A program made the translations under genes and the position numbers. The notes below the pieces were generated by a model. The model did no database searches and was not told the DNA's origin. It worked only from the letters and a program-made list of their open reading frames with translations. A DNA stretch of 64,000 nt from Escherichia coli. GTDB taxonomy: Bacteria; Pseudomonadota; Gammaproteobacteria; Enterobacterales; Enterobacteriaceae. The DNA lies in assembly GCF_036507355.1 (NCBI RefSeq), contig NZ_AP027877.1; one strand, given 5' to 3'. This document shows positions 1 through 16,137 of this stretch, in pieces (the first letter of the stretch is position 1; each line of letters starts with the position of its first letter).

Positions 1-1
1 G

Positions 2-193
<192 letters not shown>

Positions 194-589
194 CCCCTTC
201 TTATCGTGCCGGAATACATCCCATATTTCGGCACGCTCACCGGATGCGGCATCAGTGCATTATCCGGATAACAATATTCTCCTATCCAACTTTGGCACAT
301 CTATTGCTTTGTTATACAAGGCAAAGCTTTAACCAGCATCAGTACAACCCGGTTGCACCACAGCAATCCGCCGGTAGCACCAAAAGAGTGCATTTTAAGA
401 ATTTTGCTTCGGAATGGTGCGGTGCACTTCGCAAAAACAAACAATAAAACATCAATATCTTTACATTTAGCCAAACTAAATGTTACCTAACAGTCACAAC
501 ACTGCACAATAAAGTTGCAGACGATAACAACACAAACACTCACAACGGGTATCCATGCGTTCTTAACGCAGAAGATAAAGGAGTTGGAT

Positions 590-1498
590 ATGCAATTACG
601 TAAACCTGCCACAGCAATCCTAGCCCTTGCGCTTTCCGCAGGACTGGCACAGGCAGATGACGCCGCCCCGGCAGCGGGCAGTACGCTGGACAAAATCGCC
701 AAAAACGGCGTGATTGTCGTCGGTCACCGTGAATCTTCAGTACCTTTCTCTTATTACGACAATCAGCAAAAAGTGGTGGGTTATTCGCAGGATTACTCCA
801 ACGCCATTGTTGAAGCAGTGAAAAAGAAACTCAACAAACCGGACTTGCAGGTGAAATTGATTCCGATCACCTCACAAAACCGTATTCCTCTTCTGCAAAA
901 CGGCACTTTCGATTTTGAATGTGGTTCTACCACCAACAACGTCGAACGCCAAAAACAGGCGGCTTTCTCTGACACTATTTTCGTGGTCGGTACGCGCCTG
1001 TTGACCAAAAAGGGCGGCGATATCAAAGATTTTGCCGACCTGAAAGGCAAAGCCGTAGTCGTCACTTCCGGCACTACCTCTGAAGTTTTGCTCAACAAAC
1101 TGAATGAAGAGCAAAAAATGAATATGCGCATCATCAGCGCCAAAGATCACGGTGACTCTTTCCGTACCCTGGAAAGCGGTCGTGCCGTTGCCTTTATGAT
1201 GGATGATGCTCTGCTGGCCGGTGAACGTGCGAAAGCGAAGAAACCAGACAACTGGGATATCGTCGGCAAGCCGCAGTCTCAGGAAGCCTACGGTTGCATG
1301 TTGCGTAAAGACGATCCGCAGTTCAAAAAGCTGATGGATGACACTATCGCTCAGGTGCAGACCTCCGGCGAAGCGGAAAAATGGTTTGATAAATGGTTCA
1401 AAAATCCCATTCCGCCGAAAAACCTGAACATGAATTTCGAACTGTCAGACGAAATGAAAGCACTGTTCAAAGAACCGAATGACAAGGCACTGAACTAA
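590..1498 (+). CDS. gltI: glutamate/aspartate ABC transporter periplasmic binding protein
   Basis: ORF 515..1498; start refined to ATG at 590 preceded by AAGGAG; N-terminal signal peptide MQLRKPATAILALALSAGLAQA; 302 aa. Confidence 0.92.
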   Translation: MQLRKPATAILALALSAGLAQADDAAPAAGSTLDKIAKNGVIVVGHRESSVPFSYYDNQQKVVGYSQDYSNAIVEAVKKKLNKPDLQVKLIPITSQNRIPLLQNGTFDFECGSTTNNVERQKQAAFSDTIFVVGTRLLTKKGGDIKDFADLKGKAVVVTSGTTSEVLLNKLNEEQKMNMRIISAKDHGDSFRTLESGRAVAFMMDDALLAGERAKAKKPDNWDIVGKPQSQEAYGCMLRKDDPQFKKLMDDTIAQVQTSGEAEKWFDKWFKNPIPPKNLNMNFELSDEMKALFKEPNDKALN

Positions 1499-1620
1499 TT
1501 ACAAGAACCAGGGGCGGAAATTCTAGCCCTCTCGATTGTTACGTAGCACGGACAGACTATACGCCTGATGGTCGTTCCCCATCGGGCCTGAAAACCGCAA
1601 TACGCTGGGTAACAATCTTC

Positions 1621-1655
1621 GAGGGTAGCAGTTAACGCTGCTACCCTCTTTTTTC
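1621..1655 (+). terminator. GC-rich hairpin plus T-run between gltI and gltJ (terminator/attenuator)
   Basis: gagggtagcagttaacgctgctaccctc followed by ttttttc. Confidence 0.6.
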
Positions 1656-1667
1656 TGGAGTAGATTT

Positions 1668-2408
1668 ATGTCTATAGACTGGAACTGGGGTATTTTTTTA
1701 CAACAAGCCCCGTTCGGCAACACCACCTATCTTGGTTGGATCTGGAGTGGTTTTCAGGTGACGATCGCTTTGTCGATCTGCGCCTGGATTATCGCTTTCC
1801 TCGTCGGTTCATTTTTCGGCATTTTACGTACCGTTCCAAACCGTTTTCTATCCGGTCTGGGTACGTTGTATGTCGAACTGTTCCGCAACGTGCCGTTGAT
1901 TGTGCAATTCTTTACCTGGTATCTGGTGATCCCGGAGCTGCTGCCGGAGAAAATCGGCATGTGGTTTAAGGCCGAGCTGGATCCCAATATTCAGTTTTTC
2001 CTTTCATCCATGCTCTGCCTGGGGCTGTTTACTGCGGCTCGCGTTTGCGAACAGGTACGCGCCGCGATTCAGTCGCTGCCGCGCGGGCAAAAAAATGCCG
2101 CGCTGGCGATGGGGCTGACGCTGCCGCAGGCTTACCGCTATGTACTGTTGCCTAATGCTTATCGCGTTATCGTCCCGCCGATGACTTCCGAGATGATGAA
2201 CCTGGTGAAAAACTCCGCCATCGCCTCGACTATCGGTCTGGTGGATATGGCGGCGCAGGCGGGTAAATTGCTCGATTACTCGGCCCACGCCTGGGAGTCG
2301 TTTACCGCCATTACGCTAGCGTATGTGTTGATTAACGCTTTTATCATGCTGGTGATGACGCTGGTTGAACGTAAAGTTCGCCTGCCCGGCAACATGGGGG
2401 GCAAATAA
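1668..2408 (+). CDS. gltJ: glutamate/aspartate ABC transporter permease
   Basis: 246 aa ORF, multiple hydrophobic helices, immediately follows gltI. Confidence 0.92.
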
Positions 2409-3082
2409 TGTACGAGTTTGACTGGAGTTCTATTGTCCCTTCCCTGCCGTATCTGCTGGATGGGCTGGTGATCACCCTGAAAATCACCGTCACGGCAGTC
2501 GTGATTGGTATTTTGTGGGGCACCATGCTGGCGGTGATGCGCTTGTCCAGCTTTGCGCCCGTAGCGTGGTTTGCCAAAGCCTACGTTAACGTATTCCGCT
2601 CGATTCCTTTAGTTATGGTTTTGCTGTGGTTTTACCTGATCGTGCCGGGTTTTCTGCAAAACGTGCTGGGATTATCACCAAAAAATGATATCCGTTTAAT
2701 TTCGGCGATGGTGGCGTTTTCGATGTTTGAAGCGGCCTACTATTCAGAGATTATCCGTGCTGGTATTCAAAGTATTTCTCGTGGTCAGTCGAGCGCCGCG
2801 CTGGCGTTGGGAATGACTCACTGGCAGTCGATGAAACTGATTATTCTGCCGCAGGCGTTCCGCGCGATGGTGCCGCTGCTGCTTACTCAGGGCATCGTAC
2901 TGTTCCAGGATACCTCACTGGTGTATGTGTTATCTCTGGCCGATTTCTTCCGTACCGCCTCAACCATTGGTGAGCGTGATGGTACGCAGGTTGAGATGAT
3001 CCTGTTTGCCGGATTTGTTTATTTCGTTATTAGCCTTAGCGCGTCGTTGTTGGTCAGCTACTTGAAAAGAAGGACAGCATAA
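2408..3082 (+). CDS. gltK: glutamate/aspartate ABC transporter permease
   Basis: 224 aa ORF, start overlaps gltJ stop (ATGA-type coupling). Confidence 0.92.
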
Positions 3083-3807
3083 TGATTACCCTGAAAAATG
3101 TTTCAAAATGGTATGGTCACTTTCAGGTGCTGACCGACTGCTCAACCGAAGTGAAAAAAGGCGAAGTGGTGGTGGTTTGCGGCCCGTCTGGTTCCGGCAA
3201 ATCAACGCTGATTAAAACCGTCAACGGCCTCGAACCGGTGCAGCAAGGTGAAATCACCGTCGATGGTATCGTGGTTAACGACAAGAAAACCGATCTGGCA
3301 AAGCTGCGTTCCCGCGTCGGGATGGTATTCCAGCATTTCGAGCTGTTCCCTCATCTGTCGATTATCGAAAACCTGACCCTGGCGCAGGTGAAAGTGCTTA
3401 AACGCGATAAAGCACCCGCTCGTGAAAAAGCATTGAAATTGCTGGAGCGCGTGGGACTTTCCGCACATGCCAATAAATTTCCGGCACAGCTTTCCGGCGG
3501 TCAGCAGCAGCGTGTGGCGATCGCTCGCGCATTGTGTATGGATCCTATTGCCATGCTGTTCGACGAACCGACATCGGCGCTGGATCCGGAGATGATCAAC
3601 GAAGTGCTGGACGTAATGGTCGAACTGGCGAATGAAGGAATGACCATGATGGTGGTGACCCACGAAATGGGCTTTGCCCGTAAAGTGGCGAATCGGGTGA
3701 TCTTTATGGATGAGGGTAAAATTGTCGAAGACTCGCCGAAAGATGCGTTCTTCGATGATCCGAAATCGGACCGCGCAAAAGACTTCCTCGCGAAAATCCT
3801 GCATTAA
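3082..3807 (+). CDS. gltL: glutamate/aspartate ABC transporter ATP-binding protein
   Basis: 241 aa; Walker [13 protein letters not shown] signature LSGGQQQR, Walker [12 protein letters not shown]. Confidence 0.95.
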
Positions 3808-3924
3808 TCACTCTGGCGCGCATCCCCAAGTGCGCGCCATCTCACGCTTTATCGTTTCGCCCCTCGTATCTGTTACATCCTGGCGTTACCCTTGCCGCAA
3901 AGAAGCACACAACAAGGAGCAACA

Positions 3925-4860
3925 ATGGCACTGCCAATTCTGTTAGATTGCGACCCAGGTCATGATGACGCTATCGCAATAGTTCTCGCCCTCGCCTCAC
4001 CAGAGCTTGATGTCAAAGCAATTACGTCTTCCGCCGGAAACCAGACACCAGAAAAAACCTTACGCAATGTTCTGCGTATGCTGACCTTGCTTAATCGCAC
4101 CGATATTCCGGTAGCCGGCGGCGCAGTAAAACCGTTAATACGTGAGTTGATTATCGCGGACAATGTGCACGGCGAAAGCGGTCTCGACGGCCCGGCATTA
4201 CCGGAACCGGCGTTCGCACCGCAAAACTGTACGGCCGTAGAGCTAATGGCGAAAACGCTGCGTGAAAGTGCGGAACCTGTCACGATTGTGTCTACCGGAC
4301 CGCAAACTAACGTTGCCTTGCTGCTCAATAGCCATCCGGAACTGCATAGCAAAATTGCCCGTATCGTGATTATGGGTGGCGCTATGGGGCTGGGTAACTG
4401 GACGCCTGCGGCTGAATTTAATATTTACGTTGACCCGGAAGCGGCAGAAATTGTCTTCCAGTCAGGGATCCCGGTGGTGATGGCCGGTCTGGATGTTACT
4501 CACAAAGCACAAATCCACGTTGAAGACACTGAGCGTTTCCGCGCGATTGGCAACCCTGTTTCAACCATTGTTGCCGAACTGCTGGATTTCTTCCTCGAAT
4601 ATCATAAAGACGAAAAATGGGGCTTTGTCGGCGCACCGCTGCATGACCCATGCACCATCGCCTGGCTGTTGAAACCGGAGTTGTTTACCACTGTTGAGCG
4701 CTGGGTTGGCGTGGAAACACAAGGGAAATATACCCAGGGGATGACGGTTGTTGATTATTATTATCTGACTGGCAATAAACCGAATGCCACTGTAATGGTC
4801 GATGTTGATCGTCAGGGCTTTGTTGATTTACTGGCTGATCGTCTGAAATTTTACGCTTAA
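3925..4860 (+). CDS. rihA: pyrimidine-specific ribonucleoside hydrolase
   Basis: ORF 3892..4860; start refined to [16 protein letters not shown] (nucleoside hydrolase DxDxxxDD motif); 311 aa. Confidence 0.9.
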
Positions 4861-4943
4861 CACACGTCATTGATTAAGATCACCACGCGTTACCTGGGTG
4901 GTCTTAATCTGTTTATCTCTTTTTCTTTCAAGATATAAATGCA

Positions 4944-6614
4944 ATGGATAATGCAGAACTCGCCATTGGTATCGATCTCGGTACTACCAATAGTTTAATT
5001 GCCGTCTGGAAAGACGGTGCCGCGCAATTAATTCCAAATAAGTTCGGTGAATATTTAACACCATCCATAATTAGCATGGATGAAAATAATCATATTTTAG
5101 TCGGAAAACCGGCTGTATCACGGCGTACTTCGCATCCGGATAAAACGGCAGCGTTATTTAAACGTGCAATGGGCAGTAATACCAACTGGCGGTTAGGCAG
5201 CGACACATTTAACGCGCCAGAACTGTCCTCTTTGGTATTACGCTCATTAAAAGAAGATGCCGAAGAATTTCTGCAACGTCCGATTAAAGATGTGGTGATC
5301 TCTGTTCCGGCTTATTTCAGCGATGAACAACGCAAGCATACCCGTTTAGCAGCGGAGTTAGCCGGTTTAAATGCAGTTCGCCTGATTAATGAGCCAACGG
5401 CAGCTGCGATGGCGTATGGCCTACATACCCAACAAAATACCCGTTCGCTGGTGTTTGATCTCGGTGGCGGCACGTTTGACGTTACGGTGCTTGAGTACGC
5501 CACGCCGGTGATTGAAGTTCACGCCTCCGCTGGCGACAACTTCCTCGGTGGCGAAGATTTTACCCATATGCTGGTCGATGAGGTTTTAAAACGCGCGGAT
5601 GTCGCCAGGACCACGCTTAACGAGAGTGAACTGGCAGCCTTGTATGCCTGTGTGGAAGCGGCAAAATGTAGCAATCAATCGCTAATGCACATTCGCTGGC
5701 AGTACCAGGATGAAACGCGGGAATGCGAATTTTACGAGAACGAACTGGAAGATTTGTGGTTGCCGCTGCTCAATCGCTTGCGAGTGCCGATTGAACAGGC
5801 GTTGCGCGATGCGCGTCTGAAGCCGAGTCAAATCGACAGTCTGGTGCTGGTTGGCGGCGCGTCACAAATGCCGCTGGTGCAGCGAATCGCCGTGCGTCTG
5901 TTTGGCAAATTACCGTATCAAAGTTACGATCCGAGCACCATTGTCGCGCTGGGCGCAGCAATCCAGGCAGCCTGCCGCTTACGCAGTGAAGATATTGAAG
6001 AAGTGATCCTCACTGATATTTGCCCTTACTCGTTGGGCGTTGAGGTTAACCGTCAGGGCGTTTCCGGCATTTTCTCGCCGATTATTGAACGAAACACCAC
6101 TGTGCCCGTGTCGCGTGTAGAAACTTATTCAACCATGCACCCGGAACAGGATTCAATTACGGTTAACGTCTATCAGGGAGAAAACCACAAAGTTAAAAAC
6201 AACATTCTGGTGGAATCCTTCGATGTGCCGTTGAAGAAAACCGGGGCTTATCAGTCGATTGATATTCGCTTTAGTTATGATATCAACGGGTTGCTTGAAG
6301 TTGACGTGCTTCTGGAAGACGGCAGCGTTAAGTCCAGAGTGATTAACCACAGCCCGGTAACATTGAGCGCGCAGCAGATTGAAGAGAGTCGGACGCGGTT
6401 ATCCGCATTGAAAATTTATCCGCGCGATATGCTCATCAACCGCACCTTTAAGGCCAAACTGGAAGAGTTGTGGGCGCGGGCGCTGGGTGACGAGCGAGAA
6501 GAGATTGGCCGGGTGATCACCGATTTTGATTCGGCGTTGCAGTCAAACGATATGGCCCGCGTCGATGAGGTCAGGCGGCGGGCGAGCGATTATTTAGCCA
6601 TTGAGATCCCATAA
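4944..6614 (+). CDS. hscC: Hsp70-family chaperone HscC (Hsc62)
   Basis: 556 aa; Hsp70 motifs IDLGTTNS and DLGGGTFD; AT-rich 5' end. Confidence 0.92.
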   Translation: MDNAELAIGIDLGTTNSLIAVWKDGAAQLIPNKFGEYLTPSIISMDENNHILVGKPAVSRRTSHPDKTAALFKRAMGSNTNWRLGSDTFNAPELSSLVLRSLKEDAEEFLQRPIKDVVISVPAYFSDEQRKHTRLAAELAGLNAVRLINEPTAAAMAYGLHTQQNTRSLVFDLGGGTFDVTVLEYATPVIEVHASAGDNFLGGEDFTHMLVDEVLKRADVARTTLNESELAALYACVEAAKCSNQSLMHIRWQYQDETRECEFYENELEDLWLPLLNRLRVPIEQALRDARLKPSQIDSLVLVGGASQMPLVQRIAVRLFGKLPYQSYDPSTIVALGAAIQAACRLRSEDIEEVILTDICPYSLGVEVNRQGVSGIFSPIIERNTTVPVSRVETYSTMHPEQDSITVNVYQGENHKVKNNILVESFDVPLKKTGAYQSIDIRFSYDINGLLEVDVLLEDGSVKSRVINHSPVTLSAQQIEESRTRLSALKIYPRDMLINRTFKAKLEELWARALGDEREEIGRVITDFDSALQSNDMARVDEVRRRASDYLAIEIP

Positions 6615-6620
6615 ACACGG

Positions 6621-6660
6621 CTGCCGGATGCGGCGTAAACGCTGCATCTGGCATCGGCGC
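6621..6660. repeat. REP-like palindromic element between convergent hscC and djlC
   Basis: gccggatgcggcgtaaacgc...ctggcatcggcgc resembles the REP consensus core. Confidence 0.45.
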
Positions 6661-6673
6661 AAAAAACACATCG

Positions 6674-8125
6674 TCAACTAAACAACATCGCGATTTTGCC
6701 GAGAGCATAACCTATCACCAGCACCGTTAAGCTGATTTTGATAATGCTGGTAATGCTCTGTGGTTTTTCATCCTCATCATTTTTTTCTTCATGGTTTTCA
6801 GGTGTTGGCTCATCGACATCTTCATCCTCCGGCTCGAGTTTCACTTTCGTCAACAGCATCCGGGTGATAATGGCCTCTAATGGATGAGCATCTCCACCTT
6901 CCAGCCTTGTATTAAGACGGGCCAGCATCTCTTGTTTCGGAAACGCTTCAAGTACTACCTGTTCCGCTACCCGATACAAATCCAGTAACGGTGAATCTTG
7001 CTCTGTCTCGCTACCGACCCTCGATTTCCACCACGCCCATGCTTTGCGTTTGAAGAATAACGACTCAATAAACGATTGACCTAACGGCGATAGTTTTCCG
7101 CTATGTAAAATTTCCGCCCATAACAGACGCGTCCGGGCGCTCTCACCAGGAACATATTTCAACGGTTTACCTTGCGCATCTACCATGCTCCGTGCTTCGA
7201 TAACCATCACTAATAACGCGAAATAATCCGGGCAATGTTGTGCGCTCCACTGCAACAACAAATTATCGGCTTGTGTAGATGGGTAACTTCCCCAGTACGC
7301 GCAGAGATCGGCAAGCAGGCTTTCCCCCTCGCCGCAGTACAAACGTTGTGCACACTGGTAATACCGGGCATCTTCGCTTTCTGGTTCTTCCGTTTGCCAC
7401 TGTTGGGCAACAGGAATGAGTTCCGCCATACCTGTTTGCACCGAGCTGTACCAGCGCAACAGTTTGCGATGCAACTTCGCATCATCAGGAATTAACCACG
7501 GACCTGCCAACGCCAAAAACGCAGTGACATAGTCAGGATGGTAACGACAGCAACGTTCCAGCGCGAAGTAATACTCAACAGTCTGGTTCTGCAACGCAAT
7601 GGGATATTCCAGAAGGCTAAGGAAATCGAAACAATCACCAGCCTGAATGGCCTCAAGAAAAGCCTCCCTTTCTTCCTCATCCATTCCTACGCTGTCATTA
7701 AACGAATGCCAGTTCAAACGCTCTGCCAGCAAAGAAGCACAATTTAATGAAAGATATCGCGCTTCTATAGCGATTGCACACAGCGGCCAGCGTAATTGAT
7801 CGACATCCTCCATGTTCCAGGTATTTAATTGCTGAATAAATTTCTGCCAGGCGGAAGGCTGAAAACGATCACTTTCTGAATCCAGTAATGTCCTGAATGC
7901 ACGAAGTATTTCATGTTCAGCGGCGGCATCTTTTTCTTCATCATCTGCTTCCTCGACAGGATTTACCGCCAGTCGCAGCGCCTCTTCATAGGCCTGGCGT
8001 AATGCTTTAAACCCCTGCGGATCGGTTTCGGGATGACATAACGGTAAGCGAGCAAAATAAGCCTGGCGGATAATGTCTATTTGCGTCGTGCTTTCAATTT
8101 CGAGGATTTGCCAACATGTTTTCAT
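6674..8125 (-). CDS. djlC: J-domain co-chaperone of HscC with C-terminal membrane anchor
   Basis: 483 aa; N-terminal J-like region with [10 protein letters not shown]-terminal hydrophobic tail [18 protein letters not shown]; start overlaps ybeU stop by 4 bp. Confidence 0.88.
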
Positions 8126-8829
8126 AGGTCGCTCACATCCTTAAGCGTTACCGGGCATTCAGGCTGGACAGTTAATGGTTGCCAGGGAAGCGTGGCATAG
8201 AAACGATCGCTTCCCGCTGCTAGCTCTTCGAACATATGACTCCTGGCGCTATCGTATTTGTACAGGGTTAGCGCCTCGCGTAGCGAAGTGTTGTCTTCGC
8301 ACTGAGAAGATTGCCAGTAGAGACGCCCTAGTGAATAGGCAGAAAAATAGTGCATCCAGCTGTGATAGTAATGGTGAGCTCGTACATAGACGCGCGATTG
8401 CAGCCATAAACTCTCGTCTTCCGTCAGCCACTTGTTGAGCACACCAACCCGTGATAAAAAACCCATCCGCACATAATCCCAGGCTTTGATTCCCCCTTCC
8501 CCACAACACATAGCGGTTTGGGCAACGAACTGGGTATAAATCAACCCTCTCTCCGAGCCACCAGCAATTAATGCTTTCCACTCTTCAGGGGAAGAGCGAT
8601 GCCATGTCAGATATAAGCCAGCTAAATCATTGGCATGACCATCATCAGTCATCTGATAAATAGTCTGAATTAAATCATCACGATTATTTATTCCCCAGGA
8701 TGATGAGAGATCGAATTCTTTTATCCCGGTATACATTTTTGGCGAGTCATGCGCGGGTTTGCAACCCTGATTAAGTATTTCCATGGGCGCAGAAAGCGCA
8801 AAAAGAAGATATTGTTCTTCCTTATTCAT
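8122..8829 (-). CDS. ybeU: DUF1266-like protein, function unknown
   Basis: 235 aa; paralogue of ybeR with shared motif [20 protein letters not shown]. Confidence 0.85.
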
Positions 8830-8930
8830 TTGTTAATAATCCCTTAAGTGCATTAACTGACTACTTTTTTATTATTGATGAGTATAAACTTGACGCTTTC
8901 AAAATAAAAAGAAAATCGAAACATTCACAC

Positions 8931-9485
8931 ATGAATAAAAAATTAATGTATATATTCGCAATTTTTATAGTTGCAGCAATTACCTGTATTAGCCAACCCA
9001 AGAAAACGACGTTGCGTGATAAAGCCATGGTGAATTATGCCTTTGATTATTTAAGCTCACCGGGCAGTCTTCCATTCACCACGGCAGCCACGGAGCTTTC
9101 CGCGATTCATGGTCACTCAACGTCGCAATATCGCCTTGGAGAATTTTATCTTCATGGTAGCGACGGTAAACCACTGGATTATACACAGGCGAGATACTGG
9201 TATGAGCAATCAGCGGAACAGGAAAATCCACGCGCGCAAAGTAAACTGGGGTGGATCTACCTCAAAGGTCTGGGGGTCAAACCCGACACCCGTAAAGCAA
9301 TTCTCTGGTATAAGGAAGCAGCTGAACAAGGGTATGCTCATGCTCAATATACTTTAGGTTTGATCTACAGAAATGGCTCAGGTATTAATGTTAACCATTA
9401 TGAATCTCAAAAATGGTTAAAACTGGCCGCCAAACAACATTACAAAAATGCGGAAAGATTACTTGCCGGGCTTCCCGCACATTAA
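8931..9485 (+). CDS. ybeT: Sel1-repeat (TPR-like) protein with N-terminal hydrophobic segment
   Basis: 184 aa; N-terminal [21 protein letters not shown]; Sel1-like repeats (AQ..LG..Y..G.GV); AT-rich coding sequence. Confidence 0.85.
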
Positions 9486-9494
9486 CGTCGACTG

Positions 9495-10922
9495 TCACCC
9501 GAACAGATGGAGTATTTTCCCTATCAAACCAGCAAAGATAAAAATATAGAAAATAATTTTAATGATGCCCAGACAGCCTGGCCCACCATCGTCAACGGGC
9601 ATTGGCTGCGGTTGCGGCTCCGGTTCAACAGTTTGCTTCTCGGTAAAATTCGCCGCCTGAATTAATAATCGACGAATAATTAATGCTTCCAGTGGACAAC
9701 GATTTTCTGCATCAAGACGGCTTACGATCGGCATTAATGATTCTTCTGTTGGTTGGCTGGCCTGCACTAATTGTTTGGCAACTAAATATAATGGCCATAA
9801 GGGATGTTCTGTATCACGCGTGAGTGAGATCCGCGGCTTACGTCCTTTGTGCAAAACCATCTCGACCAGTGAACGCCCCAGAGCAGAGAGTTTTTCATCG
9901 CTGAGTATTTCGTATAAATGAAAACGCGTACGGGCGCTGTCGCCGGGGATATAAAGTAGCGGTTTTCCCTGATCGTTAACCAGTTCACGAGCTTCAATCA
10001 TCATCACCACTAACGGGTAATAATCGACCCGATGCTGACGGCACCATTGCAATATTAAAGCATCCGCCTGGGTGGAGGGATACTCGCGCCAGTAGTCACA
10101 AAGTTCTGCCAGCAAGCTTTCGCCTTCTCCACAATAGACGCGTTGTGCGTATTCATAATAACGCGCATCTTCATTATCAGGTTCAGCTTCCCGCCACGAC
10201 CGGGCGTAATCCAGGAGTTCGGGAATTCCCAGGCGACCTGCGCTATACCAGCGGAGTAAATTTCTGTGCAGTTTTGCATCATCGGGGATAATCACTGCGC
10301 GATGTTGCGCTAAATACAATGTCAGCCATTCTGGATGCGATGACCAAATCCGAGCGAACATTTGGTAAAAATCGATGGTGTCATTTTGCACGGCAACGGG
10401 CAGATGCAGGATGGTCTGGAAGTTAAAAACATTCCCCTTCGCAATGGCATATAAAAAGGATTCCAGTTCTTCTTCGTCTATTTCCCCGACGTTTTCTTCC
10501 TGCAACCACCGCAATCTTTCTGCTAATAACACCACGCACTCGAAGGATAAATGGGCAGTGTTCATGGCTATTGTGCACAGCGACCAGCGTAATTCATCAA
10601 TCTCTTCCATCGAGCAATAATTTAATTGCTGAATGAATCGCTGCCAGGCGGAGGGCAGAAAACGTTCGCTATCAGAGGCAAGTAACGCACGAAAGGCGAG
10701 CAGAATTTCATGTTCTGCTACCTCATATTCTTCTGGTTGCCAAACAGATTTAGCAGGCGACTGCGCAATCCGTAGCGCCTCCTCATACGCCTGACGAAGT
10801 TGTTTAAAACCCTGCGGATCGGTTTCTGGATGAAAGGACGGTAACAGCGCCAGATAAGCGCGGCGGATAATATCGACGTCAGTCGTTTCCTCTATGTTGA
10901 GGATCTTCCAGCAATTTTTCAT
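9495..10922 (-). CDS. djlB: J-domain protein with C-terminal membrane anchor, paralogue of djlC
   Basis: 475 aa; N-terminus [23 protein letters not shown]...[10 protein letters not shown]-terminal hydrophobic tail; start overlaps ybeR stop by 4 bp. Confidence 0.88.
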
Positions 10923-11626
10923 AGGTCGCTCATATCCTTAAGCGTTTCCGGGCATGTGGGGTAGTCAGCCAGTGGTTGCCAGGGTAAGGTCGCGTAATAT
11001 GCATCGTCACTGGCAAATAATTGATAAAACATATCATTGCCGGAATCGTCGTATTCTTTACGCGCTAAGAATTCACGTAATAAAGGCAGATTATCATCTT
11101 CGGGAGACTGCCAATATTGCCGACCAAAGGTATAACCGGCAAAGTATTGCCGCCAGTTACTATAATAACGTAGAGCCCGTAGATGAATACGCGACTGGAT
11201 CCATAGACTTTCTTCTTCACTCAACCAGTTATTAAGTACGCCCATTCGACTTAAAAAACCCATCCGGACATAATCCCATGCTTTAATTCCTCCCTCACCA
11301 CAGCATTCGGCTGTGCTGGCGACAAATTGCGCATAAGCCTGACCTTGCTCATTTAATTCAGCAAGATAGTCACGCCATTCACATGGAGAATAACGAAACC
11401 AGCGGTGATAAAACCCTGCCAACCGAGCGGCATGACCGTTATCGATCATTCGGTGAATTGTGCGCAGCAGGTCATCACGGTCATCAATTCCCCAGGAGGA
11501 AGAAAGGTCAAAAAAGCATGTACCTAAATACATTTTGGGGGATGAATGCGAAGGTAAACAGCATTCATTGCGTATTTCCATCGGAGTGGAAAGTGCAAAC
11601 AATATTTTTTGCGACTCCATGTCCAT
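10919..11626 (-). CDS. ybeR: DUF1266-like protein, function unknown, paralogue of ybeU
   Basis: 235 aa; same [20 protein letters not shown] motif as ybeU. Confidence 0.85.
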
Positions 11627-11783
11627 ATAATTTATCCTTAAACATTCATTTAATGAATGTAAACTACATTAGGAGGCTCATTTATTTATACTTTTCTGAC
11701 ACAACATAATACGCATAAAATAAGACTTACGCAAAAACGGAACACATAAAAATATAATATGTTTTATCTGCAACCATAAGGAA

Positions 11784-12767
11784 ATGATAATGATTTTTAC
11801 GTCAAGTTGCTGCGATAATTTGTCAATAGATGAGATTATCGAACGTGCTGAACAAGGCGATAGTGAGGCTCAATATATTGTTGGGTTTTATTATAATCGC
11901 GATAGCGCAATTGACTCTCCGGACGACGAAAAGGCCTTTTACTGGCTGAAGCTGGCCGCTGAGCAAGGTCATTGTGAAGCACAGTATTCCTTAGGGCAAA
12001 AGTATACCGAGGATAAAAGCCGTCATAAAGATAATGAGCAAGCCATCTTCTGGCTGAAAAAAGCTGCCCTACAAGGCCATACTTTCGCTTCCAACGCCCT
12101 TGGCTGGATACTGGATCGTGGAGAAGACCCCAACTATAAAGAAGCGGTTGCCTGGTATCAGATAGCCGCGGAGAGCGGAATGTCTTATGCGCAAAATAAT
12201 CTTGGGTGGATGTACAGAAATGGCAACGGAGTCGCACAAGACTATACGCTGGCATTTTTCTGGTACAAACAAGCTGCATTACAAGGCCATAGTGACGCGC
12301 AAAACAATCTGGCCGATCTTTATGAAGACGGAAAAGGCGTTGCTCAAAACGAGACACTCGCCGCATTCTGGTATTTGAAAAGCGCACAGCAGGGTAATCG
12401 GCATGCTCAGTTTCAAATTGCATGGGATTATAACGCTGGCGAAGGGGTGGACCAGGACTATAAGCAAGCGATGTACTGGTATCTGAAGGCTGCCGCTCAG
12501 GGGAGCGTCGGCGCTTACGTCAACATCGGTTATATGTATAAACACGGACAAGGCGTTGAGAAAGATTATCAGGCTGCCTTTGAATGGTTTACGAAAGCCG
12601 CTGAATGCAATGACGCCACTGCCTGGTATAACCTGGCCATTATGTATCACTACGGAGAAGGAAGACCTGTCGATCTCCGACAGGCTCTCGACCTGTATCG
12701 TAAAGTTCAGTCATCCGGAACCAGAGATGTCAGTCAGGAAATTCGTGAGACTGAAGATTTACTGTAG
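11784..12767 (+). CDS. ybeQ: Sel1-repeat (TPR-like) protein
   Basis: 327 aa; at least seven Sel1-like repeats (AQ..LG..Y..G.GV..D...A..W); Cys-rich N-terminus. Confidence 0.85.
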   Translation: MIMIFTSSCCDNLSIDEIIERAEQGDSEAQYIVGFYYNRDSAIDSPDDEKAFYWLKLAAEQGHCEAQYSLGQKYTEDKSRHKDNEQAIFWLKKAALQGHTFASNALGWILDRGEDPNYKEAVAWYQIAAESGMSYAQNNLGWMYRNGNGVAQDYTLAFFWYKQAALQGHSDAQNNLADLYEDGKGVAQNETLAAFWYLKSAQQGNRHAQFQIAWDYNAGEGVDQDYKQAMYWYLKAAAQGSVGAYVNIGYMYKHGQGVEKDYQAAFEWFTKAAECNDATAWYNLAIMYHYGEGRPVDLRQALDLYRKVQSSGTRDVSQEIRETEDLL

Positions 12768-12771
12768 AGAT

Positions 12772-12812
12772 AAAAACAAGGGCCGGGGAATTTCATTCGG
12801 CCCATATTCTCT
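12772..12812. terminator. hairpin between convergent ybeQ and ybeL
   Basis: gggccggggaatttcattcggccc stem-loop flanked by A/T runs. Confidence 0.4.
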
Positions 12813-12836
12813 TTATTGCTGTGCGAAATCAGACTA

Positions 12837-13319
12837 TTACGGCTCAAACGGGCGTCTCTGGAACTGGTCATGACCACATTTCGGGCATAGCGTCAGCACT
12901 TCCGGTGTGTAGATCGGGAGATGGAAGTGACATTTCTCGCAGACCAGATTTCCCAGCCCGACCACTTCTCCGCTGTGATAAACCCCATGATGATTGAGGT
13001 CCTGGAAAACTTCGCGCCATTCAAGCTGCGTTTTATCGGTGATGTCTGCCAGCTCCTGCCACAAGCTTTCTTTAATCACCCGCATAAAGACGCTGTCAGA
13101 TTCTTCTTTCAGGCTCTCTTCATAGCTCATGGCGAACTCTTCCAGGTCACGTCTGACAGCTCGCGTCAGCTCATCGACCTCGGTTCGCGTTAACTCCCCT
13201 GTTTTTATTACGCGCTCGCGCGCCTGTTCCACCAGTGCGTCGATATCACGTTCGCCATTGCGCAGGCGTTCGCTCAGTGACGCGACCAGTTCACGGTAAT
13301 ATTGAGCAACCTTGTTCAT
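12837..13319 (-). CDS. ybeL: DUF1451 zinc-ribbon protein
   Basis: 160 aa; C-terminal CxxC...CxxC (CEKCHF...CPKCGH). Confidence 0.85.
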   Translation of the reverse strand: MNKVAQYYRELVASLSERLRNGERDIDALVEQARERVIKTGELTRTEVDELTRAVRRDLEEFAMSYEESLKEESDSVFMRVIKESLWQELADITDKTQLEWREVFQDLNHHGVYHSGEVVGLGNLVCEKCHFHLPIYTPEVLTLCPKCGHDQFQRRPFEP

Positions 13320-13554
13320 CGTTTCATCTCCCGGGTCGTTAACTGACTATAATAATAGACGTTCTTTGTTCCTTGCTTTGCTAATACGCCCACAAACTCT
13401 GTAAATTAATGTATGAATAATCCGGGCATCATTTCAACGTCGAGTGCGCGAAAGGCTGTTTTGACGCGGACGTTTGGGCTATGCTATGCGGATCTGAAAA
13501 ACCACCTCTAACGCTACTTTTGTAGCCGTAATGAAAACAGGACCACTGGCTGCC

Positions 13555-16137
13555 ATGCAAGAGCAATACCGCCCGGAAGAGATAGAATCCAAAGTACAGC
13601 TTCATTGGGATGAGAAGCGCACATTTGAAGTAACCGAAGACGAGAGCAAAGAGAAGTATTACTGCCTGTCTATGCTTCCCTATCCTTCTGGTCGACTACA
13701 CATGGGCCACGTACGTAACTACACCATCGGTGACGTGATCGCCCGCTACCAGCGTATGCTGGGCAAAAACGTCCTGCAGCCGATCGGCTGGGACGCCTTT
13801 GGTCTGCCTGCGGAAGGCGCGGCGGTGAAAAACAACACCGCACCGGCACCGTGGACGTACGACAACATCGCGTATATGAAAAACCAGCTCAAAATGCTGG
13901 GCTTTGGTTATGACTGGAGCCGCGAGCTGGCAACCTGTACGCCGGAATACTACCGTTGGGAACAGAAATTCTTCACCGAGCTGTATAAAAAAGGCCTGGT
14001 ATATAAAAAGACTTCTGCGGTCAACTGGTGCCCGAACGACCAGACCGTACTAGCGAACGAACAAGTTATCGACGGCTGCTGCTGGCGCTGCGATACCAAA
14101 GTTGAACGTAAAGAGATCCCGCAGTGGTTTATCAAAATCACCGCTTACGCTGACGAGCTGCTCAACGATCTGGATAAACTGGATCACTGGCCAGACACCG
14201 TTAAAACCATGCAGCGTAACTGGATCGGTCGTTCCGAAGGCGTGGAGATCACCTTCAACGTTAACGACTATGACAACACGCTGACCGTTTACACTACCCG
14301 CCCGGACACCTTTATGGGTTGTACCTACCTGGCGGTAGCTGCGGGTCATCCGCTGGCGCAGAAAGCGGCGGAAAATAATCCTGAACTGGCGGCCTTTATT
14401 GACGAATGCCGTAACACCAAAGTTGCCGAAGCTGAAATGGCGACGATGGAGAAAAAAGGCGTCGATACTGGCTTTAAAGCGGTTCACCCATTAACGGGCG
14501 AAGAAATTCCCGTTTGGGCAGCAAACTTCGTATTGATGGAGTACGGCACGGGCGCAGTTATGGCGGTTCCGGGGCACGACCAGCGCGACTACGAGTTTGC
14601 CTCTAAATACGGCCTGAACATCAAACCGGTTATCCTGGCAGCTGACGGCTCTGAGCCAGATCTTTCTCAGCAAGCCCTGACTGAAAAAGGCGTGCTGTTC
14701 AACTCTGGCGAGTTCAACGGTCTTGACCATGAAGCGGCCTTCAACGCCATCGCCGATAAACTGACTGCGATGGGCGTTGGCGAGCGTAAAGTGAACTACC
14801 GCCTGCGCGACTGGGGTGTTTCTCGTCAGCGTTACTGGGGCGCGCCGATTCCGATGGTGACGCTGGAAGACGGTACCGTAATGCCGACCCCGGACGACCA
14901 GCTGCCGGTGATCCTGCCGGAAGATGTGGTGATGGACGGCATTACCAGCCCGATTAAAGCAGATCCGGAGTGGGCAAAAACTACCGTTAACGGTATGCCA
15001 GCGCTGCGTGAAACCGACACTTTCGACACCTTTATGGAGTCCTCCTGGTACTATGCGCGCTACACTTGCCCAGAGTACAAAGAAGGTATGCTGGATTCCG
15101 AAGCGGCTAACTACTGGCTGCCGGTGGATATCTACATTGGTGGTATTGAACACGCCATTATGCACCTGCTCTACTTCCGCTTCTTCCACAAACTGATGCG
15201 TGATGCAGGCATGGTGAACTCTGACGAACCAGCGAAACAGTTGCTGTGTCAGGGTATGGTGCTGGCAGATGCCTTCTACTATGTTGGCGAAAACGGCGAA
15301 CGTAACTGGGTTTCCCCGGTTGATGCTATCGTTGAACGTGACGAGAAAGGCCGTATCGTGAAAGCGAAAGATGCGGCAGGCCATGAACTGGTTTATACCG
15401 GCATGAGCAAAATGTCCAAGTCGAAGAACAACGGTATCGACCCGCAGGTGATGGTTGAACGTTACGGCGCGGACACCGTTCGTCTGTTTATGATGTTTGC
15501 TTCTCCGGCTGATATGACTCTCGAATGGCAGGAATCCGGCGTGGAAGGGGCTAACCGCTTCCTGAAACGTGTCTGGAAACTGGTTTACGAGCACACAGCA
15601 AAAGGTGATGTTGCGGCACTGAACGTTGATGCGCTGACTGAAGATCAGAAAGCGCTGCGTCGCGATGTGCATAAAACGATCGCTAAAGTGACCGATGATA
15701 TCGGCCGTCGTCAGACCTTCAACACCGCAATTGCGGCGATTATGGAGCTGATGAACAAACTGGCGAAAGCACCGACCGATGGCGAGCAGGATCGCGCTCT
15801 GATGCAGGAAGCACTGCTGGCCGTTGTCCGTATGCTTAACCCGTTCACCCCGCACATTTGCTTCACGCTGTGGCAGGAACTGAAAGGCGAAGGCGATATC
15901 GACAACGCGCCGTGGCCGGTTGCTGACGAAAAAGCGATGGTGGAAGACTCCACGCTGGTCGTGGTGCAGGTTAACGGTAAAGTCCGTGCCAAAATCACCG
16001 TTCCGGTGGACGCAACGGAAGAACAGGTTCGCGAACGTGCTGGCCAGGAACATCTGGTAGCAAAATATCTTGATGGCGTTACTGTACGTAAAGTGATTTA
16101 CGTACCAGGTAAACTCCTCAATCTGGTCGTTGGCTAA
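13555..16137 (+). CDS. leuS: leucyl-tRNA synthetase
   Basis: ORF 13531..16137; start refined to [11 protein letters not shown]; class I HMGH and KMSKS motifs; 860 aa. Confidence 0.95.

What the first reader, a model, noticed from the sequence alone, without database searches (positions are those of the whole stretch)
6674..10922. Both J-protein paralogues carry HPE where J-domains normally have HPD, plus a C-terminal tail anchor
Seen: DjlC (...[25 protein letters not shown]) and DjlB (...[25 protein letters not shown]) share an identical HPETDPQGF block where canonical J-domains have the HPD tripeptide. Both end in a hydrophobic stretch (DjlC ...[18 protein letters not shown], DjlB ...[24 protein letters not shown]) consistent with a tail-anchored membrane topology. 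Established: the HPD motif is the key contact for stimulating Hsp70 ATPase. Inference: these are divergent, membrane-tethered J-proteins that recruit HscC to the membrane.
Basis: partly seen in the sequence, partly recalled or inferred. Interest (0 to 1): 0.55.

Follow-up and report, generated by a model that had tools for sequence, protein, structure and literature searches.

The report
Known HPE J-proteins DjlC and DjlB
These are the E. coli genes djlC and djlB, membrane-anchored helper proteins of the minor Hsp70 chaperone HscC; their unusual HPE motif and C-terminal membrane anchor are real but are already in the literature.

Summary
The window is the E. coli hscC-djlC-ybeU-ybeT-djlB-ybeR-ybeQ region. 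Both J-proteins carry HPE at residues 31-33. Sequence profiles and a predicted fold place this exactly on the HPD loop of solved J-domains. Both proteins end in the only strongly hydrophobic segment they contain.

The Glu is not a recent accident. It is invariant in every Enterobacteriaceae homologue that has an N-terminus, and it occurs in 105 of the best 150 distant representatives (consensus HPE-x-DP-[EQ]-GF). Six of eight distant HPE-J genes looked up lie next to a 560-566 aa HscC-type Hsp70.

- HPE in DjlB/DjlC: PNAS 2023 and a 2026 review.
- DjlC stimulating HscC ATPase: Kluck 2002, as cited in those reviews.
- DjlC as a bona fide tail-anchored protein: Peschke 2018, as cited.
- The idea that HscC works at the membrane: Mayer 2021.

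Novelty is therefore "already known" and interest is low.

Side observations that may be new:
- A DUF1266 gene overlaps the start of the HPE-J gene by ATGA in 7 of 7 loci seen.
- HscC-type Hsp70s share changes next to the J-contact site: L392T and D477S/T in 7 of 7, D481N in 6 of 7.
- Some members of the clade have NPE, SPE or LPE instead of HPE.

The parts
4944..6614 (+). hscC: HscC-type Hsp70 (556 aa), the partner of DjlC/DjlB; convergent with djlC
   Evidence: ORF and annotation. It is 32% identical to DnaK and keeps R167, Q378, L391 and P419, but has L392T, D477S, D481N and lacks the 208-211 loop. It scores below the NCBIfam cut-offs for DnaK and HscA.
6674..8125 (-). djlC (ybeV): class C J-domain protein, 483 aa
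   Evidence: ORF; annotated 'co-chaperone DjlC'. Pfam DnaJ at residues 4-47, E=0.024. Homologues carry PF27158 DjlB_C_2nd.
7961..8125 (-). DjlC J-domain core (residues 1-55: helix I 4-8, helix II 16-29, HPE loop, helix III 36-54)
   Evidence: AF2 models, pLDDT 80-90. Foldseek hits are J-domains. Profile against PDB sequences, best E=1e-7.
8027..8035 (-). DjlC HPE tripeptide (residues 31-33, CAT CCC GAA) at the HPD position
   Evidence: H31, P32 and E33 are invariant in alignments A1 and A2.
6680..6754 (-). DjlC C-terminal hydrophobic helix (residues 458-482), the tail anchor, preceded by an acidic disordered linker
   Evidence: KD-19 of 1.99; summed Hessa-scale value for the 19-residue window +1.4. 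AF2 helix at 458-482; translation. Reported experimentally as a bona fide tail-anchored membrane protein (PMC6794478).
8122..8829 (-). ybeU: DUF1266 protein (235 aa); its stop overlaps the djlC start (ATGA)
   Evidence: Pfam DUF1266, E=9e-45. Junction sequence. The same overlap occurs in distant loci.
8931..9485 (+). ybeT: Sel1-repeat protein (184 aa) with a hydrophobic N-terminus; divergent from ybeU
   Evidence: ORF; annotation. Sel1/TPR-type NCBIfam hits, all below cut-off.
9495..10922 (-). djlB (ybeS): paralogue of djlC, 475 aa
   Evidence: ORF; 53% identical to DjlC. Pfam DnaJ, E=6.9e-4. Annotated as a J domain-containing protein.
10824..10832 (-). DjlB HPE tripeptide (residues 31-33, CAT CCA GAA)
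   Evidence: Aligned to HPD of solved J-domains.
9498..9575 (-). DjlB C-terminal hydrophobic segment (residues 450-475), the predicted tail anchor
   Evidence: KD-19 of 2.39; summed Hessa-scale value for the 19-residue window -0.67. Translation.
10919..11626 (-). ybeR: DUF1266 protein (235 aa), 60% identical to YbeU; its stop overlaps the djlB start (ATGA)
   Evidence: annotation.
11784..12767 (+). ybeQ: Sel1-repeat protein (327 aa); divergent from ybeR
   Evidence: ORF; annotation; NCBIfam Sel1/TPR-type hits.

Best explanation
The two ORFs are E. coli djlC and djlB, class C J-domain co-chaperones dedicated to the specialised Hsp70 HscC, which is encoded next door.

Each protein has four parts:
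- an N-terminal J-domain whose catalytic loop reads HPE instead of HPD;
- an all-helical, TPR-like middle region (Pfam DjlB_C_2nd) that probably binds clients or partners;
- a disordered linker;
- a single C-terminal transmembrane helix that inserts post-translationally into the inner membrane (N-in), leaving the rest in the cytoplasm.

The membrane-tethered J-domain docks on ATP-bound HscC at the interface of nucleotide-binding domain, linker and substrate-binding domain. There it triggers ATP hydrolysis, so that HscC closes on clients located at the membrane.

The Glu is a lineage-fixed variant of the catalytic Asp. HscC keeps the Arg and Gln (DnaK R167 and Q378) that the Asp contacts in DnaK-DnaJ. 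Other changes accompany the Glu: a shortened loop after the motif, loss of the helix II basic residues, and HscC-specific substitutions and deletions around the docking site. Together these probably make the pair orthogonal to DnaK and its J-proteins.

Shown here: the motif register, its conservation, the tail topology by sequence and model, and the gene linkage to HscC-type Hsp70s. Taken from the literature: ATPase stimulation by DjlC and membrane insertion of DjlC. Inferred: recruitment of HscC to the membrane, DjlB activity, and the specificity role of the Glu.
For: Identity of the locus: 99% match to E. coli genomes annotated hscC/djlC/djlB.

J-domain and register:
- Pfam DnaJ hits.
- phmmer and profile alignments to solved J-domains with HPE on HPD, best E=1e-7.
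- AF2 helix-loop-helix with HPE in the loop.
- Foldseek top hits are J-domains, including the DnaK-bound DnaJ J-domain 5nro_B.

Selection on the Glu:
- HPE in every one of the 116 Enterobacteriaceae homologues that has an N-terminus.
- H31, P32 and E33 invariant in A1 and A2.
- HPE in 105 of the best 150 distant representatives, none with HPD at this site.

Partner linkage:
- A 560-566 aa Hsp70 lies adjacent in 6 of 8 distant loci.
- These are 41-60% identical to HscC against 33-37% to DnaK, and share the HscC-type features.
- HscC retains R167, Q378, L391 and P419.

Tail anchor:
- It is the only KD>1.6 segment, at the extreme C-terminus in 20 of 20 homologues.
- AF2 models a terminal helix after a disordered acidic linker.

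Literature:
- HPE in DjlB/DjlC (PMC10410713; PMC13254874).
- DjlC alone stimulates HscC; both J-proteins are tail-anchored; a membrane function is proposed; Cd2+ sensitivity of the hscC and djlB djlC mutants (PMC8215388).
Against: - The Pfam DnaJ hit for DjlC alone is weak (E=0.024), and the Foldseek E-values for the small domain are not significant.
- DjlC's tail is only moderately hydrophobic, contains two Lys, and a comparable maximum arises in 7.5% of composition shuffles.
- No experiment accessible here shows HscC at the membrane, DjlB stimulating HscC, or the Glu being required.
- Kluck 2002 and Peschke 2018 could not be read directly; they are used as cited by open-access papers.
- No single HscC residue change cleanly tracks the D-to-E swap. 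R167 and Q378 are unchanged, and D481N has one exception.
Confidence: 0.88

Rival explanations
1. HPE is a disabling lesion. On this view DjlB and DjlC are pseudo-J ('type IV') proteins that bind but do not activate an Hsp70, or that work independently of Hsp70.
For: Substitutions in HPD such as HPN or QPD abolish ATPase stimulation in every system tested (PMC8215388; PMC13254874). The Pfam DnaJ scores are weak. Helix II lacks the basic residues of DnaJ (alignment).
Against: The reviews report that DjlC stimulates HscC ATPase, and call HPE 'the only replacement tolerated'. The Glu is invariant across a deep clade rather than drifting. The genes remain linked to HscC-type Hsp70 genes. HscC keeps the Arg and Gln that contact the acidic residue.
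Confidence: 0.04
2. The C-terminal hydrophobic stretches are not transmembrane anchors. They would instead be amphipathic or oligomerisation helices, or degradation tags, on soluble proteins.
For: DjlC's segment is only moderately hydrophobic (summed Hessa-scale value +1.4) and contains two embedded Lys. Shuffles reach the same KD maximum in 7.5% of trials.
Against: The top hydrophobic window is C-terminal in 20 of 20 homologues despite sequence divergence. AF2 models a 25-residue helix after a disordered linker. Larger relatives replace the tail with a multi-span DUF805 membrane domain, so membrane attachment is a recurrent theme. [quoted passage not shown]
Confidence: 0.04
3. Only DjlC is functional. 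DjlB would be a redundant, decaying duplicate whose HPE and tail are retained merely by recent ancestry.
For: Only DjlC has been tested biochemically. DjlB's role is 'assumed' in the review. Both proteins are below proteomic detection.
Against: DjlB is an intact 475-aa ORF only 53% identical to DjlC, so the duplication is old. The DjlB-type cluster P0039 (475 aa, ending in the same C-terminal tail as the window's DjlB) holds more than 10,000 member sequences. Its DUF1266 and Sel1 companions were duplicated with it and are also intact. The Cd2+ phenotype is described for deletion of both J genes, which suggests overlapping function.
Confidence: 0.1

Closest known systems
E. coli K-12 DjlC (YbeV) and DjlB (YbeS), co-chaperones of HscC (Kluck et al. 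2002; Peschke et al. 2018; reviewed in PMC8215388)
   Same: They are the same genes: same locus, same order hscC-djlC-ybeU-ybeT-djlB-ybeR-ybeQ, 99% DNA identity to annotated E. coli genomes. They have the same HPE motif and the same tail anchor.
   Different: Only strain-level differences.
HPE-type J-domain proteins as catalogued by Malinverni et al., PNAS 2023 (PMC10410713): 2,921 J-domains, about 1% of all
   Same: The window's proteins are named there as examples of HPE J-domain proteins without other annotated domains.
   Different: That survey does not describe linkage to HscC-type Hsp70 or to DUF1266. Here, 6 of 8 distant loci have an adjacent HscC-type Hsp70, and 7 of 7 DUF1266-J junctions seen overlap by ATGA.
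E. coli DjlA, the membrane-anchored J-protein of DnaK
   Same: It is a class C J-domain protein that tethers a J-domain to the cytoplasmic face of the inner membrane, giving an Hsp70 a membrane-localised activity (partner assignment from PMC8215388).
   Different: From general knowledge, DjlA has the opposite topology (N-terminal transmembrane segment, C-terminal J-domain) and a canonical HPD, and it works with DnaK. DjlB's J-domain is only 23% identical to that of DjlA.
HscB-HscA dedicated J-protein/Hsp70 pair
   Same: A specialised Hsp70 encoded next to its own class C J-protein, insulated from DnaK/DnaJ and independent of GrpE. HscA also lacks the DnaK 208-211 loop.
   Different: HscB keeps HPD, is soluble and delivers IscU. 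HscA keeps L392 and D481, whereas HscC-type proteins have T at 392 and mostly N at 481.
J-like or 'type IV' proteins with a corrupted HPD (e.g. DnaJB13, discussed in PMC13254874)
   Same: They deviate from the HPD signature.
   Different: Those are presumed unable to stimulate Hsp70. HPE in DjlB/DjlC is described as the one tolerated replacement.

Membership tests
J-domain (Pfam PF00226, DnaJ) | Significant sequence similarity to the J-domain profile | tested here: met
   Pfam: DjlB E=6.9e-4, DjlC E=0.024. The clade profile A2 hits 39 solved J-domains, best E=1e-7. The distant relative P0125 scores E=1e-6.
J-domain (Pfam PF00226, DnaJ) | Helix II - loop - helix III hairpin fold with a short helix I | tested here: met
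   AF2 helices at 4-8, 16-29 and 36-54, pLDDT 80-90. Foldseek top 50 are almost all J-domains (rmsd 2.0-2.8 A to 2m6y and 5nro_B), although E>0.1 for this small domain.
J-domain (Pfam PF00226, DnaJ) | Invariant His-Pro-Asp tripeptide in the loop | tested here: not met
   The tripeptide is His-Pro-Glu in both proteins and throughout the clade. The proteins are therefore filed as the described HPE variant class, not as canonical HPD J-domains.
J-domain (Pfam PF00226, DnaJ) | Stimulates the ATPase of a partner Hsp70 | not testable with these tools
   Reported for DjlC with HscC (Kluck 2002, as cited in PMC8215388). Not reported for DjlB.
DjlB/DjlC-type HPE J-proteins (Pfam PF27158 DjlB_C_2nd) | N-terminal J-domain with HPE-x-DP-[EQ]-GF followed by the DjlB_C_2nd region | tested here: met
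   Motif invariant. PF27158 is precomputed on nearly all homologues of the window proteins and named. It is not in the Pfam release used by profile_search.
DjlB/DjlC-type HPE J-proteins (Pfam PF27158 DjlB_C_2nd) | Encoded next to an HscC-type Hsp70 | tested here: met
   In the window, hscC ends 59 nt from the djlC stop. 6 of 8 distant loci have an adjacent 560-566 aa Hsp70, closer to HscC than to DnaK or HscA.
Tail-anchored inner-membrane proteins | Single hydrophobic transmembrane segment at the extreme C-terminus, with only a few residues beyond it | tested here: met
   KD-19 of 1.99 and 2.39, with 1 and 7 residues following the window. True of 20 of 20 homologues. AF2 helix at 458-482.
Tail-anchored inner-membrane proteins | No N-terminal signal peptide and no other transmembrane segment | tested here: met
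   The best KD-19 window elsewhere is 1.36 (DjlC) and 1.53 (DjlB), below 1.6. The N-terminus is the J-domain.
Tail-anchored inner-membrane proteins | The transmembrane domain is necessary and sufficient for post-translational membrane insertion | not testable with these tools
   Reported for DjlC (Peschke 2018, as cited in PMC6794478). For DjlB it rests on homology (PMC8215388).
HscC-type Hsp70 (the partner) | 550-580 aa, deletions relative to DnaK including the loop with D211, distinct from DnaK and HscA | tested here: met
   556 aa; 32% identical to both DnaK and HscA; residues 208-211 deleted. Below the NCBIfam cut-offs for DnaK and HscA. Criteria taken from PMC8215388.

The most novel reading that the evidence does not exclude
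The HscC system may have an unrecognised conserved third component. A DUF1266 protein (YbeU/YbeR) is translationally coupled to each HPE-J gene: ATGA overlaps occur in 7 of 7 junctions seen, including metagenomic relatives whose DUF1266 is only 35-39% identical to YbeU. It could be an obligate subunit, adaptor or regulator of DjlB/DjlC. It often sits beside a repeat protein (Sel1 or MORN) encoded nearby.

In the same reading, the Glu of HPE is a specificity determinant co-adapted to HscC-type changes beside the J-contact site (L392T and D477S/T in 7 of 7, D481N in 6 of 7). This would insulate HscC from DnaJ, CbpA and DjlA, and insulate DnaK from DjlB and DjlC.
Probability: 0.3. Interest if true: 0.5.

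Novelty: already known. Interest (0 to 1): 0.15.

Why it matters
For the finding as stated, it matters little, because the HPE motif, the tail anchor, the HscC partnership and the membrane hypothesis are all in print.

What is still open:
- The clients and physiological role of HscC-DjlB/C. Only the Cd2+ and UV phenotypes are known.
- Whether the Glu is a specificity switch. No E-to-D test was found in the literature searched.
- What the conserved DUF1266 and Sel1 neighbours do.

The linkage data gathered here give a concrete candidate partner (YbeU/YbeR) to test. That could help assign a function to one of the last uncharacterised Hsp70 systems of E. coli.

Tried and rejected
1. An alternative functional HPD elsewhere. 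DjlC has 'HPD' at residues 196-198. It lies in the helical middle region and is not conserved: DjlB has HPE there, and other homologues have YPE, HSE, NTR, QLS or NIH. Rejected.

2. A compensating change at the Hsp70 residues that bind the Asp. R167 and Q378 are unchanged in HscC. Rejected.

3. D481N as the co-varying partner of D-to-E. It held in 5 of 5 HscC-type proteins, with DnaK and HscA both keeping D. It then failed in the L013 Hsp70, which has D although its neighbour P0156 is HPE. Downgraded to a tendency.

4. Fold of the full-length protein. Foldseek against the PDB gave only weak TPR-solenoid matches (E>0.1, TM about 0.2). It says no more than 'helical repeat'.

5. NCBIfam has no model for DjlC, DjlB, YbeU or YbeR.

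6. A PDB sequence search with YbeU found nothing.

7. The primary papers (Kluck 2002, and by extension Peschke 2018) are not held in the library. Their results are used only as cited by open-access papers.

8. The promoter and terminator scan of 4700-12900 found fewer sites than shuffled sequence gives and was uninformative.

9. Literature on DUF1266 and on ybeU, ybeR, ybeT and ybeQ. Searches found only incidental mentions, judged from titles, abstract starts and term counts; the papers were not opened.
Full report
**What is in the window.** Listing ORFs across 4000-14000 gives, in order:
- rihA-like nucleoside hydrolase;
- a 556-aa Hsp70 at 4944-6614 (+);
- a 483-aa ORF at 6674-8125 (-);
- a 235-aa ORF at 8122-8829 (-);
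- a 184-aa ORF at 8931-9485 (+);
- a 475-aa ORF at 9495-10922 (-);
- a 235-aa ORF at 10919-11626 (-);
- a 327-aa ORF at 11784-12767 (+);
- then a 160-aa ORF at 12837-13319 (-) and an 868-aa ORF at 13531-16137 (+), read from general knowledge as ybeL and leuS.

Megablast of 4900-12800 against complete E. coli genomes finds 99% identical matches. They are annotated hscC, djlC ('co-chaperone DjlC'), ybeU (DUF1266), a Sel1 protein, djlB ('J domain-containing protein'), ybeR (DUF1266) and ybeQ (Sel1). The finding therefore concerns the well-known E. coli genes djlC (ybeV) and djlB (ybeS).

**Checking the observation.** The quoted peptide strings are exactly present. The two proteins are 53% identical over 437 residues. 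HPE occupies residues 31-33 in both, at 8027-8035(-) and 10824-10832(-), with codons CAT CC[C/A] GAA.

The register question, whether this really is the HPD position, was tested four ways:
- Pfam places a DnaJ domain at residues 4-47 of both proteins, weakly (E=0.024 for DjlC, 6.9e-4 for DjlB).
- phmmer of the DjlB N-terminus against PDB sequences aligns HPE onto the HPD of C. elegans dnj-12, human DNAJA1 and E. coli DnaJ.
- A profile built from 38 diverse members of the clade (A2) hits 39 solved J-domains, best E=1e-7. The three alignments printed (two DNAJA1 entries and dnj-12) all put HPE on HPD.
- AF2 models of full-length DjlC and of residues 1-92 put HPE in the loop between helix 16-29 and helix 36-54, pLDDT 80-90. 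Foldseek with the 92-residue model returns almost exclusively J-domains, including the DnaK-bound DnaJ J-domain 5nro_B (rmsd 2.8 A over 58 columns). Its E-values are not significant for so small a domain.

DjlC does contain 'HPD' at residues 196-198. That site is in the helical middle region and is not conserved: DjlB has HPE, and others have YPE, HSE, NTR, QLS. It is not an alternative motif.

**Is the Glu more than chance or recent ancestry?**
- Among 116 homologues from Escherichia, Salmonella, Citrobacter and Enterobacter, every one that has an N-terminus carries HPE at position 31.
- H31, P32, E33, D35, P36, Q37, G38, F39 and K40 are invariant in a 20-sequence alignment going down to 41% identity.
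- A profile search of 1.84 billion representative proteins gave 6488 hits at E<=1e-3. Among the best 150, 105 have HPE and none has HPD at the J position. The consensus is HPE-x-DP-[EQ]-GF.
- Ten carry NPE, SPE or LPE, so the His is lost while PE-DPEGF is kept.

The Glu is therefore a fixed character of a deep clade.

**The tail.** The only Kyte-Doolittle 19-residue windows above 1.6 are the last 26 residues of each protein, with maxima of 1.99 and 2.39. Composition shuffles reach those maxima in 7.5% and 1.9% of trials, so hydrophobicity alone is weak evidence.

Position is the stronger evidence. In 20 of 20 diverse homologues the most hydrophobic window lies within 9 residues of the C-terminus, even though the tail sequences differ between subgroups. 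AF2 models a helix at 458-482 after a disordered acidic linker. There is no N-terminal signal and no second hydrophobic segment.

Membrane attachment also recurs in distant relatives. Of 57 full-length HPE proteins, 34 have at least one KD>1.6 segment and 19 have one in the last 45 residues. The roughly 890-aa class ends in a DUF805 membrane domain.

**Partner.** hscC converges on djlC, with 59 nt between them. I looked up the genomic context of eight distant HPE-J proteins.
- Six lie next to a 560-566 aa Hsp70.
- One contig of 6.9 kb has none.
- One enterobacterial locus shows three J paralogues at the same leuS-side site.

The neighbouring Hsp70s are 41-60% identical to HscC, against 33-37% to DnaK and 30-34% to HscA.

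In DnaK-DnaJ, H33 contacts the L391 carbonyl, P34 contacts P419, and D35 contacts R167 and Q378 (PMC8215388). HscC keeps R146, Q341, L356 and P388 at those positions, so no simple compensating change exists at the direct contacts.

HscC-type proteins do share nearby differences from both DnaK and HscA:
- L392T in the linker, 7 of 7.
- D481N, 6 of 7. The exception is L013, whose J partner is still HPE.
- D477 (Q in HscA) is S or T in 7 of 7.
- They also lack the D208-D211 loop, a deletion that HscA shares in this alignment.

The deletion of the D211 loop is already noted in the literature.

On the J side, the loop after the motif is about 6 residues shorter than in DnaJ, and helix II lacks K26 and R27 (alignments). 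K48 is kept as invariant K40.

**What is already known.**
- Malinverni et al. (PNAS 2023) report 2,921 HPE J-domains, about 1% of the total, and name DjlB and DjlC as examples (PMC10410713).
- Mayer's 2021 review makes four relevant statements (PMC8215388). [quoted passage not shown] DjlB is 50% identical to DjlC overall and 64% in the J-domain. [quoted passage not shown] The hscC and djlB djlC mutants are Cd2+-sensitive.
- Peschke et al. established DjlC as a bona fide tail-anchored protein. Its transmembrane domain is required and sufficient for targeting, which depends on SRP, FtsY, YidC and DnaK (as cited in PMC6794478).
- Pfam now has a family named DjlB_C_2nd (PF27158).

Kluck 2002 itself could not be opened.

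**Mechanism.** The best-supported model is a membrane-tethered, HscC-dedicated J-protein. The C-terminal helix anchors DjlC/DjlB N-in in the inner membrane. The cytoplasmic J-domain docks on ATP-bound HscC, and its HPE loop engages the linker and the conserved Arg and Gln to trigger hydrolysis. The helical middle region, weakly TPR-like, presumably selects clients or partners.

- Shown here: register, conservation, topology by sequence, and gene linkage.
- From the literature: ATPase stimulation and insertion for DjlC.
- Inferred: HscC recruitment to the membrane, DjlB activity, and a specificity role for the Glu.

Three rivals (a dead J-domain, a non-membrane tail, DjlB as a decaying copy) are each contradicted by conservation, linkage or published experiments. 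They get low confidence.

**Side observations.** The unit Sel1 / DUF1266 / J is duplicated in tandem: YbeU and YbeR are 60% identical, DjlC and DjlB 53%.

In both copies the DUF1266 stop overlaps the J-gene start by ATGA. The same 4-nt overlap occurs in L002, L012, L013 and twice in L014, where the DUF1266 proteins of L002, L012 and L013 are only 35-39% identical to YbeU. That makes 7 of 7 junctions seen.

DUF1266 is confirmed by Pfam (E=9e-45). It has no solved relative by sequence and appears in one paper of the library. This is the most promising lead for something new, a third component of the HscC system, but it lies outside the finding as stated.

**Verdict.** Novelty is 'already known', and interest is low (0.15). 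The residual novel reading, DUF1266 as a conserved partner with the Glu as a co-adapted specificity determinant, gets probability about 0.3 and moderate interest if true.

Noticed in passing
window 8122-8125 and 10919-10922; L002 2906-2909; L012 5001-5004; L013 1882-1885; L014 9195-9198 and 11341-11344: In 7 of 7 junctions seen, a DUF1266 gene ends in an ATGA overlap with the start of the HPE-J gene, which suggests translational coupling. The DUF1266 proteins of L002, L012 and L013 are only 35-39% identical to YbeU. DUF1266 is essentially unstudied (one paper in the library mentions it).
   Followed up: partly
window 8122-12767: The three-gene unit Sel1-repeat gene (+) / DUF1266 (-) / J-protein (-) is tandemly duplicated: ybeT/ybeU/djlC and ybeQ/ybeR/djlB. 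The paralogues are 60% (DUF1266) and 53% (J) identical. A distant locus (L002) has a MORN-repeat protein in the position of the Sel1 protein.
   Followed up: partly
P0207, P0219, P0233, P0235, P0241, P0243, P0244 (NPE); P0240, P0252 (SPE); P0257 (LPE): Within the HPE clade some large TPR-bearing relatives have lost the His as well (NPE, SPE or LPE followed by DPEGF). In canonical J-domains the H-to-Q change is inactivating. Whether these proteins still activate an Hsp70 is unknown.
   Followed up: no
window 4944-6614 (HscC residues 357, 444, 448); L002, L005, L006, L009, L012, L013 Hsp70 genes: HscC-type Hsp70s share L392T (interdomain linker) and D477S/T in 7 of 7, and D481N in 6 of 7 (DnaK numbering). 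DnaK and HscA both keep L392 and D481; D477 is D in DnaK and Q in HscA. D481 is a key allosteric clamp residue in DnaK. L013 keeps D481 although its J partner is HPE.
   Followed up: partly
P0125, P0127 and similar proteins (about 885-920 aa); L002 2906-5569; L012 5001-7688: One class of relatives carries the DjlC-like J-domain plus DjlB_C_2nd region and then, instead of a single tail anchor, a C-terminal DUF805 multi-span membrane domain. It keeps the DUF1266 gene upstream and the HscC-type Hsp70 next door.
   Followed up: partly
L014 (GCA_010723345.1 contig, 1-11377): An enterobacterial contig with the same flank as the window (Pfam-annotated tRNA-synthetase, LptE and DNA pol III delta genes, plus a DUF1451 gene like the window's 160-aa ORF at 12837-13319) carries three DjlB_C_2nd J-protein genes. 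Two are preceded by DUF1266 genes. The copy number of the module therefore varies between lineages.
   Followed up: no
window 8001-12000: G+C falls to 41-46% in three of the four 1-kb blocks across ybeU-ybeT and ybeR-ybeQ (the 10001-11000 block is 48.8%), against 49-53% in the flanks. This is compatible with horizontally acquired, possibly H-NS-silenced DNA. Papers on the SlyA regulon mention ybeU and ybeT; this is from search hits only, and the papers were not read.
   Followed up: no
window 4900-12800 against E. coli genomes: Only 4448 of 5426 complete E. coli genomes match the region, and 3691 cover at least 80% of it. The hscC-djlC-djlB island is therefore variably present or partly deleted in the species.
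   Followed up: no
window 8931-9000 (YbeT N-terminus): YbeT begins with a hydrophobic stretch ([23 protein letters not shown]) that looks like a signal peptide or signal anchor. Its paralogue-in-position YbeQ has none. The two Sel1 proteins may therefore sit in different compartments.
   Followed up: no
window 7532-7540 (DjlC residues 196-198): DjlC has a chance 'HPD' tripeptide in the middle helical region. DjlB has HPE at the aligned site, and other homologues vary (YPE, HSE, NTR, QLS). It is not a J-motif.
   Followed up: yes
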